From positions 13,214-77,213 of the forward strand of contig CAXHJY010000010.1 in the NCBI GenBank assembly GCA_964016885.1: DNA of 64,000 bases, read 5' to 3'. The stretch comes from Eledone cirrhosa (lineage: Eukaryota). Numbering within the stretch: position 1 is the first letter of the stretch; every line of letters begins with the position of its first letter. Made by a program: the position numbers and the translations under genes. The notes under the pieces were generated by a model. That model did not search any database, was not told the origin of the DNA, and saw nothing but the letters and a program-made list of their open reading frames with translations. Positions 32,159-40,444 of this stretch are shown piece by piece.

Positions 32159-32636
32159 TATATATATATATATATGTATATATATATATATATATATATA
32201 TATATATATATATATATATATATATATATATATATATATATATATGTATATATAAGTTGAAATAAAATGAAAACGAAATTTCATTTCTCACTCTTAGTAC
32301 GGCACTTACTTAAATGTAAGTATGTGTGTATACGTACATACATATATGTATACAGACGTACAGTAACATGCATACATATATACATATATATATATATATA
32401 TATATATATATATATATATATATATATATATATATATATATATATATATATATATATATATATATATATATACATATATACATACAGGTACACATACATA
32501 TATGCACGTATCAGTTTAGCGGACGCTTATTATAACGCCGCTTTGTTCGTTTGTAAACAAACTGAACAGCCTGAATTTTTATGCCGTACGGTGTTAAGGC
32601 AACCACGTCACCTTTTTGTTCAACACTGACACAGGA

Positions 32637-32679
32637 ACGATGTACTAGTTTCAAGCTTGTTAGCTATCATCAGCACCGT
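32637..32679 (-). ncRNA. Type I hammerhead ribozyme
   Basis: ACGGUG-CUGAUGA-uAGCU-aaca-AGCUu-GAAA-CUAG-UA-CAUCGU; palindromic ACUAGU stem III, GUA triplet. Confidence 0.85.
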
Positions 32680-33218
32680 ATACCCATCTGCCAGATAGTT
32701 GAACGTTCGAAAGTATATACTTTCCTTATGAAAATTAACGGCTGAGCAGCCTAATTTGCATATCGAGTGAGCTAAGTCGGTCAGGCATACCGAAAACGAT
32801 AAGTTGAAATAAAATGAAAACGAAATTTCATTTCTCACTCTTAGTACGACACTTACTTAAATGTAAGTATGTGTGTATACGTACATACATATATGTATAC
32901 AGACGTACAGTAGCATGCATATATATATATATATATATATATATATATATATACATACAGGTACACATACATATATGAACGTATCAGTTTAGCGGACGCT
33001 TACACACATATATGTACGTATACACACATACTTACATTTAAGTAAGTGCCGTACTAAGAGTGAGAAATGAAATTTCGTTTTCATTTTATTTCAACTTATC
33101 GTTTTCGGTATGCCTGACCGACTTAGCTCACTCGATATGCAAATTAGGCTGCTCAGCCGTTAATTTTCATAAGGAAAGTATATACTTTCGAACGTTCAAC
33201 TATCTGGCAGATGGGTAT

Positions 33219-33261
33219 ACGGTGCTGATGATAGCTAACAAGCTTGAAACTAGTACATCGT
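33219..33261 (+). ncRNA. Type I hammerhead ribozyme (identical to 32637)
   Basis: acggtgctgatgatagctaacaagcttgaaactagtacatcgt. Confidence 0.85.
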
Positions 33262-33525
33262 TCCTGTGTCAGTGTTGAACAAAAAGGTGACGTGGTTGCC
33301 TTAACACCGTACGGCATAAAAATTCAGGCTGTTCAGTTTGTTTACAAACGAACAAAGCGGCGCTATAATAAGCGTCCGCTAAACTGATACGTGCATATGT
33401 GTATGTGTACCTGTATATATATATATATATATATATATATATATATATATATATATATATATATATATGCATGCTACTGTACGTCTGTATACATATATGT
33501 ATGTACGTATACACACATACTTACA

Positions 33526-33624
33526 TATATATCATAACTCGTGTGTTACACCTCTATTCTTTTAAATATATATATATATATATATTTAAAAGAATAGAGG
33601 TGTAACACACGAGTTATGATATAT
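33526..33624. repeat. Perfect palindrome centred on (TA)n
   Basis: atcataactcgtgtgttacacctctattctttta-(TA)n-taaaagaatagaggtgtaacacacgagttatgat. Confidence 0.9.
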
Positions 33625-34174
33625 TGGTAAAAGGAAAAGAAAATGCTGACAAATTGTTCCCAGTGAAAAATAGTTTAATTAGGAATAAGTAAAAATTAGT
33701 AATAGTATTGGTTAGTATTCAGTTTTGGTTTTAAGTTTTACCGGTTGCGCATTCTAATGCTTTTCAAAAATAATTTTGAGATAGAGCGCCCGTAATGTTT
33801 GCTCTAATTAGATTAGAGCAAACATCACGCTTATGGTTGTAGGTGTATATGCATATATATATATATATATATATATATATATATATATATATACATGCGT
33901 GTGTGTGTGTATGTATGAATATATATATGTGTGTATGTGTGTATACACGTGTGTCTATGTATGTGTATATGTACGTGTGTATCTATGTATGTATGAATGT
34001 ATTAATGTATATATGTGTGTATATATGTACGTATGTTTATGTGTATGTGTGTGAGTATAAGTATATGTGTGGGTAGATGTTTATATATGTATGTGTATAT
34101 ATATATCGAGGGATAACTTGAACCGTTAAGGTATATTCTCCTTGGTTATGTCAAAATTTATGAAACACACTTCA

Positions 34175-34236
34175 TATTTCATCTGATGATACCGTACCAA
34201 AATATTTGGTACTCTTGAAATATATATAATAGAATA
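34175..34236 (+). ncRNA. Type I hammerhead motif with (UA)n stem III
   Basis: UAUUUCAU-CUGAUGA-...GUACCAAA/UUUGGUAC...-GAAA-UAUAUA-UA-AUAGAAUA; imperfect stems. Confidence 0.65.
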
Positions 34237-36840: not shown

Positions 36841-37038
36841 ATATATAAATGGAAAAAATGAAATTTCATTTCTCACTCTTAGCACGGCTGATACTTAAAT
36901 ATAAGTATGTTTCCACTTATCGTTTTCGGTACGCCCGGCCGACTAACCAACTCGATATGCAAATTAGGCTGCTCAGCCGTTAATATGCATAAGGAAAGTA
37001 TATACTTTCAAACGTTCAATCGACTGACAGGAAGGGAT

Positions 37039-37081
37039 ACGGTGCTGATGACAGCTAATAAGATAGAAACTAGTTCATCGT
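37039..37081 (+). ncRNA. Type I hammerhead motif (diverged copy of the 33219 family)
   Basis: ACGGUG-CUGAUGA-cagcuaauaagaua-GAAA-CUAG-UU-CAUCGU; stem II decayed. Confidence 0.7.
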
Positions 37082-38129
37082 TCCTTTGTCAGTGTTGAAA
37101 AAAAGGGCAACGACGGTTGCCGAACATTGTACGGCTTAATTCGGGCTGTTTGTTTACAAACAAACCGAACATTATAATAAATGTTCGATAAACCCATACG
37201 CACATATATATATATATATATACAGTATATGTGTGCATGTATGTATGTATATACATACTACTGTACGTCTGTATACATATATGTATGTACATATACATAC
37301 TTATATATATATATATATATATATATATACAAGTAAATATGATTTGATACAGCGAGCGAGTTTGAAATTAGAATCGGAAAAAGATGAGTATTGACGTCAA
37401 TACTCATCTTTTTCGATTTCTTAGAGGGTCCTAAGCCCCACTGAGAGGCTAAAACTTCTTTAGTAAAAAATACAGCAAAATCTTCTGTTTCTTATATATG
37501 TAACCAACCAATACATACTCAAATACACACACACACACACACACACACACACACACACACACACACACACACACACACACACACACACACACACACACAC
37601 ACACACACACACACACACACACACACACACACACATATATATAAATATTGTTATATTTTGGGAGGGTCATATTGTCATGATATTGGCAAAAATAATTATA
37701 AAACAGATTCACTGTTTGGTTTGGATTGGATTTCGCTTCTGTACCTTTTATATATTCATGGTTAATTTATCTGGCAATCAATTTTTATCACTGATTGACC
37801 AACGATTAAAATATAGATATAAATATATATATATATATAGTCTATCAAAGTTCTTTCATCACACACCTGTGATGCCGTCACTGGTTCTATTCTGTTTCCT
37901 CCTGTCGTATTGTAATGTCTACGCCATTTTTATTTTATTTATTTATTTATTCCTGTCTCTGGCTCTGCTTGCGCATGCGTTTGCGTGTGTGTTTTCTGTT
38001 TGGTGTATGAGTGTGTGTTTGTATTCTATCTTTGTTCACCAGTGCGTGTTTATGTGTGGTTGTTGTTATTGTACTTGTGTATATTTATTTATTTATTTAT
38101 TTATATTTACCTTAGGTCAGTATTATGTG

Positions 38130-39600
38130 TTTGTGTATGTTTGTTGTTATTCCATTCATTTTTTCTGTTCAACTTTGGTCTTCTTAGTTCTATCTCAGTT
38201 ACTTCTCTGATTTGTCTACCTGTTGAGTCATTTCTATGTTTAGATATTATTTTAATTTCTATGTTGTCTATATTACCATCATGTCTTTGTCTGGCGTGTT
38301 CATATAGTACCGAACCGTCTTGTTGTCCTTTTAGTTCCCTTCAATGTTGGTCTATTTTCTCTCTTATGCTTCGAGCTGTCTCTCCTATGTATGTCGTTGT
38401 CATGTTTCTGCAAGTACCTTCTGTACATCTTATGCTATAGACTACATTTCTAGTTTTACAATTCATTTGAGGATTTATTCTACATATAACACATTTCTTA
38501 TTCGTACAGTGGGGTTTCTTAAAGGGTATGCTTTGCTGATCAGGGATTTTATGGTAGTTCCTGGCTTTTCAATCACTTTAATCTTTAAATGGGTCTTTCT
38601 TAGGGTCTTTCTAAATTGGCTAGCTAATTTCCTTCCAGGGATTGCATCCACGAACATGACACTCTGGTATCTCTCGTTATCGTACCATTAAATGGCTTTC
38701 CTTATCTTATGTTATTCCATGATTTGCTCCTGTATAATGGGCAAATTCCTTTCATGTCCATTTCTATGAGGGTCTTATATTTCTCCGTGGCTTCTTTGTA
38801 TACTCTGATTCTGTCTATTTGGTTGTAGCCAGAGAACTGCATGCGATTGATGAAGTATTGGATGTCTCTTTCCATTTCAGTTGCATCGCACATGCGGGAC
38901 ACCTTCTTCATCATTCTTACCAAGTCTGCGATCAGAATACTAAACTTAGCACTATTGGACATTGCTGAGTTTTTTAGTATAAGGTATTTGGAGGCTATGG
39001 GTTTAGCATAATGTGAGTGGAGAATTTGGGCCCTCTCGTTTATAATGTTTAACCAGAGTTCAGTGTCTAATACTGGTAGTCTATTGTTAGGGTGTTTGGA
39101 AGGGTAGTTAATAGTTACTGTGATGCTCTGGTGTATGGAGTTAGCTATCTGTTGGATGCTCTCCATTGTGCTATATTCTAGTTCAGGTTTATTGGTACTC
39201 TCTTGTGGAGGTGTTCTTATTACTATATTGATGTCGTCTATGTAACGAGAGTACATGACTATGGAGTTGTCTTCTAGAAGTTCTCTGAGTCTCCTTTCCC
39301 AACCTACCATAAATAGTTTGGCAACATCTCCAGCTATGCCGACGCCAATGGCTGCTCCCTCATTCTAGGTGTAGATTTTTTCATTAAATTTAAACATGTG
39401 GCACATTTGGGTAGTTTTAATACTCGCCCCTACTGCATGTGCGACCATTTTTCTCACCTGATCGTTGTTCTTGAGTGTCCGTATGGCTTTGGTCCATCCA
39501 TTCCATCTTCCTATGGGAGTCTTTTTAACCATTGAAGTTATGGTGGGGGGGGGGGGGGGTCTACCTCTTATTTGCCTACTAGAAACGGCTGAGGTCATAA
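38130..39600 (-). mobile_element. Penelope-like element (Neptune-like): RT, Cys-rich linker, C-terminal GIY-YIG; pseudogenised
   Basis: GAAIG...YSRYIDDI...LPVLDTELW...HYAKP; linker CTNKKCVIC...CKTRNVVYSIRC...TYIGETARS...LNRKNEW; frameshifts and stops. Confidence 0.92.
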
Positions 39601-39664
39601 TTATATAAGTAGATATGTTTTAATATGCAGGCTCGCGTTTCAGACGCCAGCCTGCATATTAAAA

Positions 39665-39753
39665 CATATCCGAGGAGCTTTCGATTCCAGAGTCAGGTTC
39701 GATTATTAATAGATCGTTCCTCGAGCTGATCGACAGTGAAACATATGTATATG
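39665..39753 (+). ncRNA. Degenerate hammerhead motif
   Basis: CAUAU-CcGAGGA-GCUUUCGAU...AUCGACAGU-GAAAC-AUAU-GUA-UAUG; palindromic ACAUAUGU stem III. Confidence 0.5.
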
Positions 39754-40444
39754 ATGCAGCACTGATTCTTTGTTCCTTTATATATTAATACTTAAGCCGT
39801 ACAGTGTTTAGCAACCATCGTTGCCCTTTTGTTCAACACTGACAAAGGAAGGATGGTTGCTAAAACTGTACGGCTTAATTCGGGATGTTTGTTTACAAAC
39901 AAACCGAGCATTATAATAAATGTTCGGTAGATCCATACGTACATATATGTATGTGTGCATATATGTATATGTATACATACTACTGTACGTCTGTATACAT
40001 ATATGTATGTACGTATACATACTTATATTTAAGTAACAGCCGTACTAAGAGTGAGAAATGAAATTTCGTTTCATCTTTTCCATAGATATATATATATATA
40101 TATATACATACATATATACATGCACACACACACACACGTGTGTGTGTGTGTGTGTGTGTGTGTGTGTGTGTGTGTGTGTGTGTGTGTGTGTGTGTGTGTG
40201 TGTGTGTGTGTGTGTGAATGTTTGTGCGTGTATGTGTACGTGTGTGATCTAATTGGGAAAATATTTATGTATATTCAAACAAACGTTTGTATGGATGTGA
40301 TTTTACTAAAAGAAAAGTTTCAATGTCTTTTCAGTGGTTCGATTACCCGTGATGAATATTTCATTAATAACTTGCGAAATTTCCTCTTAAAATAAAGGAA
40401 GCATTATAATTACATTTTAGGAGTTCATATAAATGTTTGATTGT

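What the first reader, a model, noticed from the sequence alone, without database searches (positions are those of the whole stretch)
32252..40080. Circularly permuted, tandem and inverted non-coding HHR unit (retrozyme-like)
Seen: a unit of about 550 bp with one HHR and an internal (TA)n occurs as 1.4 tandem copies plus a near-identical inverted copy (32252-33525). Older copies at 36845-37300 and 39790-40080 start and stop at different points, and the 39790 copy runs across the unit junction. Known: non-LTR retrozymes are tandem HHR units that spread through circular RNA. Inference: permuted ends fit reverse transcription of a circular or multimeric RNA, and the near-identity of the 32-33 kb arms suggests a recent event.
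Basis: partly seen in the sequence, partly recalled or inferred. Interest (0 to 1): 0.75.

Follow-up and report, generated by a model that had tools for sequence, protein, structure and literature searches.

The report
Two-armed retrozyme with Penelope-type ends
This is one copy of a very common protein-free repeat that carries a hammerhead (predicted self-cutting) RNA motif and lands in TA repeats as two back-to-back arms ending at two fixed points, which marks it as likely pasted in by a Penelope-type transposon enzyme; copying from an RNA circle is plausible but not shown.

Summary
The repeats are real, but their ends are not circularly permuted. The unit (436 bp plus a variable (TA)n; period 489-547 here) holds a type I hammerhead core. 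A 22-base hammerhead word occurs 11,919 times in this 3.0-Gb animal genome. In the hammerhead orientation, 126 of 127 mapped outer ends fall at two sites about 60 bases apart (unit ~24 and ~86), mostly running into (TA)n. Inner (5') ends are scattered, with no peak at the cut site. Insertions are usually two head-to-head arms, one ending at each site (41 of 45; 33 of 34). That is the published Penelope 'inverted copy plus tail' signature, and an ORF-bearing Penelope family here shows it too. So the 32-33 kb inversion is family-typical, not an artefact, and the older copies use the same two sites. The unit is not the pLTR of either Penelope family tested, and no parent element was found. Self-cleavage, expression and circles are untested. 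Verdict: a new member of the animal non-LTR retrozymes / non-autonomous Penelope derivatives. The scan has already reported this anatomy several times, in this genome and others.

The parts
32252..33001 (-). Left arm: 5'-truncated at unit 356, one full unit, ends at the long site (unit 86) in (TA)n
33002..33526 (+). Right arm: starts about 12 nt before unit position 1, one unit, ends at the short site (unit ~24-27) in TA
32252..32310 (-). About 60-nt 'tail' between the two fixed end sites (unit 28-86)
33195..33279 (+). Type I hammerhead: core at 33225, 4-bp stem II on a U-U mismatch, palindromic ACUAGU helix III, predicted cut after 33255, long stem I
32619..32703 (-). Same hammerhead in the left arm (core at 32673)
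33414..33466 (.). Internal (TA)n of the unit (also 32374-32484 and 32921-32957); length varies between units
32157..32251 (.). (TA)n target flanking the long end
36843..37303 (.). Older-subfamily two-arm insertion: tail-sized - arm (long end near 36843) and + arm unit 76 to short end; hammerhead core at 37045 (GUU)
39784..40082 (.). Older-subfamily insertion: short - piece (unit ~243-306) and + arm unit 280 to long end; no hammerhead core
37650..39600 (-). Neighbouring decayed Penelope-like RT fragment ('PLE-B', ORF piece 38702-39364 with YIDD); has its own 3' region and is not the parent of the unit
   Evidence: (RVT_1 E=0.042, weak); clade assignment is from recalled motifs

Best explanation
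A non-coding repeat with a type I hammerhead motif, present in more than 10,000 copies, is inserted into (TA)n as two head-to-head, 5'-truncated arms whose outer ends lie at two fixed sites about 60 nt apart, and it is likely mobilised in trans by a Penelope-like element (PLE) RT/GIY-YIG protein. Inferred cycle: (1) tandem units are transcribed; (2) the palindromic helix III would let neighbouring hammerheads pair and cut, possibly giving monomers that close into circles; (3) the PLE protein cuts both strands of a TA tract; (4) each DNA end primes reverse transcription, one at the long site and one at the short site; (5) both cDNAs stop at random points and are joined, mostly through 1-6 nt of microhomology. 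Shown: the anatomy, the long/short pairing, TA flanks, copy number, absence of an ORF. Inferred: PLE enzyme, two-ended priming. Untested: transcription, cleavage, circles, which PLE does it.
For: 3' ends: 62 at unit 9-31 (51 at 27), 64 at 74-86 (49 at 86), 1 other, of 127 ends in 81 loci; this query spans unit -35 to 200 only. Genome-wide exact junction counts for the young subfamily: 419 long end+TA, 223 short end+TA, 0 cut site+TA. Divergent pairs are long+short in 41 of 45. Among 60 further long-end loci the opposite arm ends short in 33 and long in 1; 9 were interrupted or ended elsewhere, 14 had no own arm in reach, 3 were unparsed. 113 5' ends are spread over unit 5-370. Of 36 arm-arm junctions, 22 overlap, 19 of them by 1-6 nt. 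The older subfamily uses the same two sites. An ORF-bearing PLE family shows the same two-arm long/short layout with its own ~100-nt tail. Published: PLE insertions carry an adjacent inverted 5'-truncated copy and a tail at one end, with microsatellite bias (PMC8557442, PMC3846280; passages). A purified PLE protein cuts and extends both strands at AT-rich DNA and starts at two internal RNA sites that define the tail (PMC11167929; parts 1-2 of 4). The hammerhead core is intact in 335 of 391 copies in its two commonest forms, and subfamilies differ at N7, H17 and loop II.
Against: No parent or partner PLE was found: no homology of the unit to the 3' regions of the two ORF-bearing families tested. 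The tail is about 60 nt against the published 30-40 nt. Covariation on 21 distinct hammerhead sequences does not beat shuffles (64-143 of 500 reach the observed values), and the 71-nt hammerhead region has a folding z of -0.37. Of nine Xenopus retrozyme dimers tested in vitro only one cut (10.64898/2026.07.22.740005), and hammerhead cutting was dispensable for insertion in vitro for the anole PLE (PMC11167929). The first 30 loci were picked by similarity; the rest come from one chromosome (C1).
Confidence: 0.82

Rival explanations
1. Refinement on the template: a hammerhead-cut, ligated circular monomer is copied round and round, which makes the multimers at the moment of insertion.
For: Young arrays are internally identical, including complex TA haplotypes (L068, L070, L147, L100). 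10 of 45 multi-copy insertions carry a variant fixed in all covering copies and absent from the other sampled copies; 6 of these span both arms, and L100 has 7 of 7. At most 15 of about 12,000 copies start at the cut site. The monomer folds strongly as a circle (z -7.4 without the TA tract, 40 shuffles). L143 shows an ABCABCA pattern. Circles are shown for coral, mussel and axolotl retrozymes (PMC7229834).
Against: 'Private' is relative to 175 sampled copies, so these may be source-locus variants. Only 49 of 136 copies have their nearest neighbour inside their own insertion, many being ties. The folding z is partly due to palindromic AT/CA flanks. No RNA evidence.
Confidence: 0.5
2. Refinement on the template: uncut linear read-through transcripts of existing arrays are the template, and arrays grow by local unequal exchange; the hammerhead is weak or a passenger.
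For: Local amplification occurs: an array of at least 40 kb with shuffled units at C2:383.0 Mb. Lack of 5' ends at the cut site fits uncut RNA equally well. Helix III is weak.
Against: Zero-divergence arrays of 3-7 units imply multimers at birth. No peak of 5' ends marks a transcription start, apart from tail-only arms. The core is kept across subfamilies about 20% apart.
Confidence: 0.35
3. The unit is just the pLTR of an ORF-bearing PLE, and these are its truncated ends.
For: Same hammerhead type, tail and inverted layout as pLTRs; PLE fragments lie nearby.
Against: Units abut at unit-length period in arrays of 9 or more with no ORF. In 100 fetched loci the only PLE ORF directly upstream (L066) is cut in mid-endonuclease and belongs to a family with a different pLTR. 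1 of 24 PLE-B loci has the unit nearby; 1 of 28 old-subfamily loci has an endonuclease fragment, about 450 bp from the unit. A rare parent is not excluded.
Confidence: 0.07
4. The 32-33 kb inversion is an assembly or read fold-back artefact.
For: No contig of the four laid runs bridges this junction, which is uninformative.
Against: The arms are asymmetric, differ at 3 of 400 sites, and end at the two family-specific sites. Dozens of loci show the same layout with different junctions. Contigs of run X1 show many distinct joints between the arms.
Confidence: 0.02

Closest known systems
Animal non-LTR retrozymes (Cervera & de la Pena 2020, PMC7229834; Li, Clavereau & Pollet 2026, 10.64898/2026.07.22.740005)
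   Same: Non-coding tandem units with one type I hammerhead each; GC 35-39%; weak palindromic helix III; U-U mismatch at the base of helix II as in axolotl HHR_Amex2; co-occurs with PLEs; size within the 51-972 bp range of Li et al.
   Different: Two-arm insertions with two fixed ends are not described in the parts read ('inverted' occurs 0 times in the main text of PMC7229834). Internal (TA)n in each unit. No pLTR homologue found here. Circles and cleavage not tested.
Insertions of endonuclease-bearing Penelope-like elements (PMC8557442, PMC3846280, PMC11167929)
   Same: Partial tandems, adjacent inverted 5'-truncated copy, tail at one end only, AT/TA targets, microhomology joints, hammerhead.
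   Different: No ORF; tail about 60 nt; arrays of up to 9 or more units per arm.
Non-autonomous Chlamys PLEs such as MRC1 (PMC8557442, passage)
   Same: Non-coding, head-to-tail multicopy, PLE-type ends.
   Different: Those share 3' sequence with an autonomous family, and their clade lacks canonical hammerheads; here there is a hammerhead and no partner identified.

Membership tests
Animal non-LTR retrozyme | Tandem units of a few hundred bp, each with a type I hammerhead | tested here: met
   arrays of 2 to 9 or more units
Animal non-LTR retrozyme | No protein-coding capacity | tested here: met
   Longest ATG ORFs are 45 and 67 aa and run through the TA tract
Animal non-LTR retrozyme | GC below 50% | tested here: met
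   35% (39% without TA)
Animal non-LTR retrozyme | Hammerhead fold supported by covariation | tested here: inconclusive
   92.8% of cells paired, but not above shuffles; core conserved
Animal non-LTR retrozyme | Self-cleavage | not testable with these tools
   needs an in vitro assay
Animal non-LTR retrozyme | Expressed as linear and circular monomers | not testable with these tools
   no RNA run available to lay
Animal non-LTR retrozyme | Homology to a PLE pLTR (Li et al.; 24 of 57 Xenopus families matched Repbase TEs, nearly all PLEs) | tested here: inconclusive
   none to the two PLE families tested; other families not surveyed
PLE-type insertion | Fixed 3' ends with an optional tail, variable 5' truncation | tested here: met
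PLE-type insertion | Adjacent inverted copy, tail at one end only | tested here: met
PLE-type insertion | AT-rich or microsatellite target | tested here: met
PLE-type insertion | Target-site duplication | not tested
   both flanks are (TA)n, so a duplication cannot be read without empty sites
Autonomous PLE | RT plus GIY-YIG ORF between pLTRs | tested here: not met
Circularly permuted insertion set | Both ends vary around the unit | tested here: not met

The most novel reading that the evidence does not exclude
A PLE protein dimer primes both ends of a TA break with a strict division of labour, one subunit at the long site and one at the short site, and rolls round a hammerhead-made circular RNA. 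The long arm often stops at the short site because the partner subunit sits there (9 of 48 long arms are 50-66 nt against about 1 expected), and the two subunits can load RNAs of different families (3 cross-family joints, all long+short: L066, L082, L148). These retrozymes would then be a natural high-copy readout of the PLE mechanism.
Probability: 0.3. Interest if true: 0.65.

Novelty: new member of a known kind. Interest (0 to 1): 0.4.

Why it matters
That PLEs move animal retrozymes has been proposed from co-occurrence and pLTR similarity. Insertion anatomy is independent evidence: this family carries the whole PLE signature without an ORF. It also gives a short defined RNA with two mapped start sites for the existing in vitro PLE assay, which can decide between circular and linear templates and test the one-long-one-short rule. 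The single locus has no evident host function, and the same anatomy has been noted repeatedly in this scan.

Tried and rejected
1. Permuted ends: rejected. 2. Ends at the hammerhead cut site: 0 3' junctions with TA. At most 15 5' junctions, several of them double substitutions, against 123 at a control position; 32 of the 100 listed control hits come from two local arrays, so the contrast is inflated, but there is no peak. 3. Neighbouring PLE-B as parent: rejected. 4. PLE-A (from chimera L066) as parent: no pLTR homology. 5. A shared upstream sequence marking a parent: none among the 5' flanks, only nested or adjoining repeats. 6. A second hammerhead on the opposite strand: none passed the descriptor. 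7. Rfam: no hammerhead hit seen. 8. RNA: no RNA holder listed; the six runs are contigs of unknown kind, and none bridges the 33002 junction. Neither counts as evidence. 9. Covariation: not above shuffles. 10. Cross-family chimeras: 3 in the first 81 loci and none clear in 60 young long-end loci; target-site deletion into a neighbouring element explains them equally, so they are a hint only. 11. Tail-only long arms: the excess is real under an exponential model (p about 2e-6; lengths taken, leaving out arms broken at or starting in the internal TA and 3 unparsed loci), but microhomology in the AT/CA-rich stretch upstream may cause it. 12. Literature: six searches listed no paper whose title or opening abstract describes two-arm retrozyme insertions; only six papers were opened, subscription journals are not covered and no supplement was read (those of the bioRxiv preprint are closed), so absence from print is not established.
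Full report
Observation. The region holds a 750-bp minus-strand arm (32252-33001) and a 525-bp plus-strand arm (33002-33526) of one unit, and two older insertions at about 36843-37303 and 39784-40082. I numbered the unit in the hammerhead orientation from 33014 (489 bp; hammerhead core at 212, predicted cut after 242, (TA)n at 401-453). The arms differ at 3 of 400 positions, and the left period is 547 bp because its TA tract is longer. The unit has no ORF outside TA-driven frames and is 35% GC.

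Hammerhead. A descriptor scan finds the core at 33225 (+), 32673 (-) and 37045 (+), with stem I of 6 pairs, a 4-bp stem II on a U-U mismatch and a palindromic ACUAGU helix III. PMC4209133 (passages read) describes such weak palindromic helices as working in dimers. Of 391 copies in the fetched loci and window, 301 and 34 carry the two commonest intact forms and 29 failed the core pattern; subfamilies differ at the free positions N7 and H17 and in loop II. The named structure is 92.8% paired over 21 distinct sequences, but covariation does not exceed shuffles, and Rfam lists no hammerhead. Activity is therefore predicted from established core rules, not shown.

Family. The genome is 3.0 Gb. The top 41 matches to the unit are 99-100% identical over full length, and a hammerhead 22-mer occurs 11,919 times. 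An older subfamily, about 95% identical among its copies and about 78% to the young unit, gave 2,752 first-look candidates. The family has been active repeatedly and recently.

Ends. I fetched 100 loci (30 best matches, the rest chosen by position along C1) and dropped 19 overlaps. With a query spanning unit -35 to 200, 127 outer ends were mapped: 62 at 9-31, 64 at 74-86 and 1 elsewhere, most followed by (TA)n. Matches of the rest of the unit end, with a few exceptions, only where the TA tract begins. Exact genome-wide junction counts for the young subfamily are 419 long, 223 short and 0 at the cut site. By contrast 113 inner ends spread over unit 5-370 in 40-nt bins of 14, 13, 12, 11, 12, 13, 3, 12, 16, 7; the low bin is partly due to how loci were picked. 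At most 15 copies begin at the cut site. So the ends are fixed on one side and random on the other: this is 5' truncation, not circular permutation. The window's old copies follow the same sites, as does their subfamily in 28 loci.

Two arms. In the exact-match listing, close opposite-strand hammerheads point apart. Automated pairing in 81 loci gave 41 long+short of 45 pairs (1 short+short, 1 long+long, 2 unclassified; a few pairings may be wrong) and 47 unpaired ends. In 60 new loci anchored on a long end, the opposite arm ended short in 33 and long in 1; the other 26 were interrupted, lacked an own arm or were unparsed (binomial p about 4e-9 for 33 of 34). Of 36 direct arm-arm junctions, 19 overlap by 1-6 nt and 3 by more; the rest are flush or have short inserts. 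The window's insertion is a typical case, which together with arm asymmetry and the many joints in run X1 rules against an artefact.

PLE link. PMC8557442 and PMC3846280 (passages) describe an adjacent inverted truncated copy and a 30-40 bp tail at one end as PLE hallmarks. PMC11167929 (parts 1-2 of 4) shows a PLE protein cutting and extending both strands at AT-rich DNA from two internal RNA sites that bound the tail. In this genome an ORF-bearing family shows the same layout with its own tail, as does a small non-coding family. The unit is not their pLTR, nor that of the PLE fragment at 37650-39600. PMC7229834 (passages and Discussion) names PLEs as candidate mobilisers of retrozymes, and the 2026 preprint (parts 1-3 of 5) supports this by co-occurrence and pLTR homology. 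The anatomy here is independent support, but the partner is unidentified.

Template. Young arrays are homogeneous down to TA haplotype, and 10 of 45 multi-copy insertions have a sample-private variant fixed in all covering copies, 6 across both arms. This, and the lack of 5' ends at the cut site, fit a circle copied repeatedly. They also fit uncut transcripts of homogeneous arrays plus local amplification, which occurs. I put the circle at about 0.5. No RNA run could be laid.

Hints. Nine of 48 long arms consist of the tail alone. Three insertions join an arm of this unit to an arm of another family, each long+short. Both have simpler explanations (microhomology; target deletion).

Verdict. 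A real, young, PLE-signature retrozyme insertion; a new member of a known kind. My reading was fixed before the look-ups. Earlier scan notes report the same anatomy for similar-sized and other families in this genome and in other genomes; they agree but are not independent evidence, and whether they concern this very family was not established (one search found no sequence match). Interest 0.4.

Noticed in passing
window 20871-21328, 25158-25489, 26081-26574, 31997-32157, 33521-33630, 37372-37418, 39612-39670, 51228-51348: Many short fold-back repeats, several next to TA. 25158-25489 carries the hammerhead of the ORF-bearing PLE-A family on both arms; 51228-51348 is the small two-arm family X.
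   Followed up: partly
window 34437 (+) and 13620, 56112 (-): Further hammerhead-like cores of other repeat families passed the descriptor.
   Followed up: no
window 35085-35489 (+): GIY-YIG endonuclease C-terminal fragment with a CxLC motif, starting at a (TA)n (Pfam E=0.0049).
   Followed up: no
window 40490-41146 and 49249-49968 (-): Two von Willebrand A domain exons of a probable host gene; whether the finding lies in its intron is not determined.
   Followed up: no
L066 (G000:C1:26.72 Mb), L082, L148: Insertions joining this unit to another PLE-type family, each with one long and one short end.
   Followed up: partly
L143 (G000:C1:297.478-297.482 Mb): Seven units with a period-3 variant pattern ABCABCA: a trimer circle or a local three-unit duplication.
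   Followed up: partly
L146 (G000:C2:383.00-383.04 Mb); G000:C10:27.95 Mb: The unit has turned into a satellite of at least 40 kb with a 442-444 bp period; elsewhere a 70-bp piece of it forms a minisatellite.
   Followed up: partly
L156, L162, L205: The internal (TA)n of the unit appears to be a target itself for other repeat families.
   Followed up: partly
L147 (G000:C1:11.818-11.821 Mb): Two near-identical arms, one short-ended and one long-ended, in convergent orientation about 1.2 kb apart.
   Followed up: no
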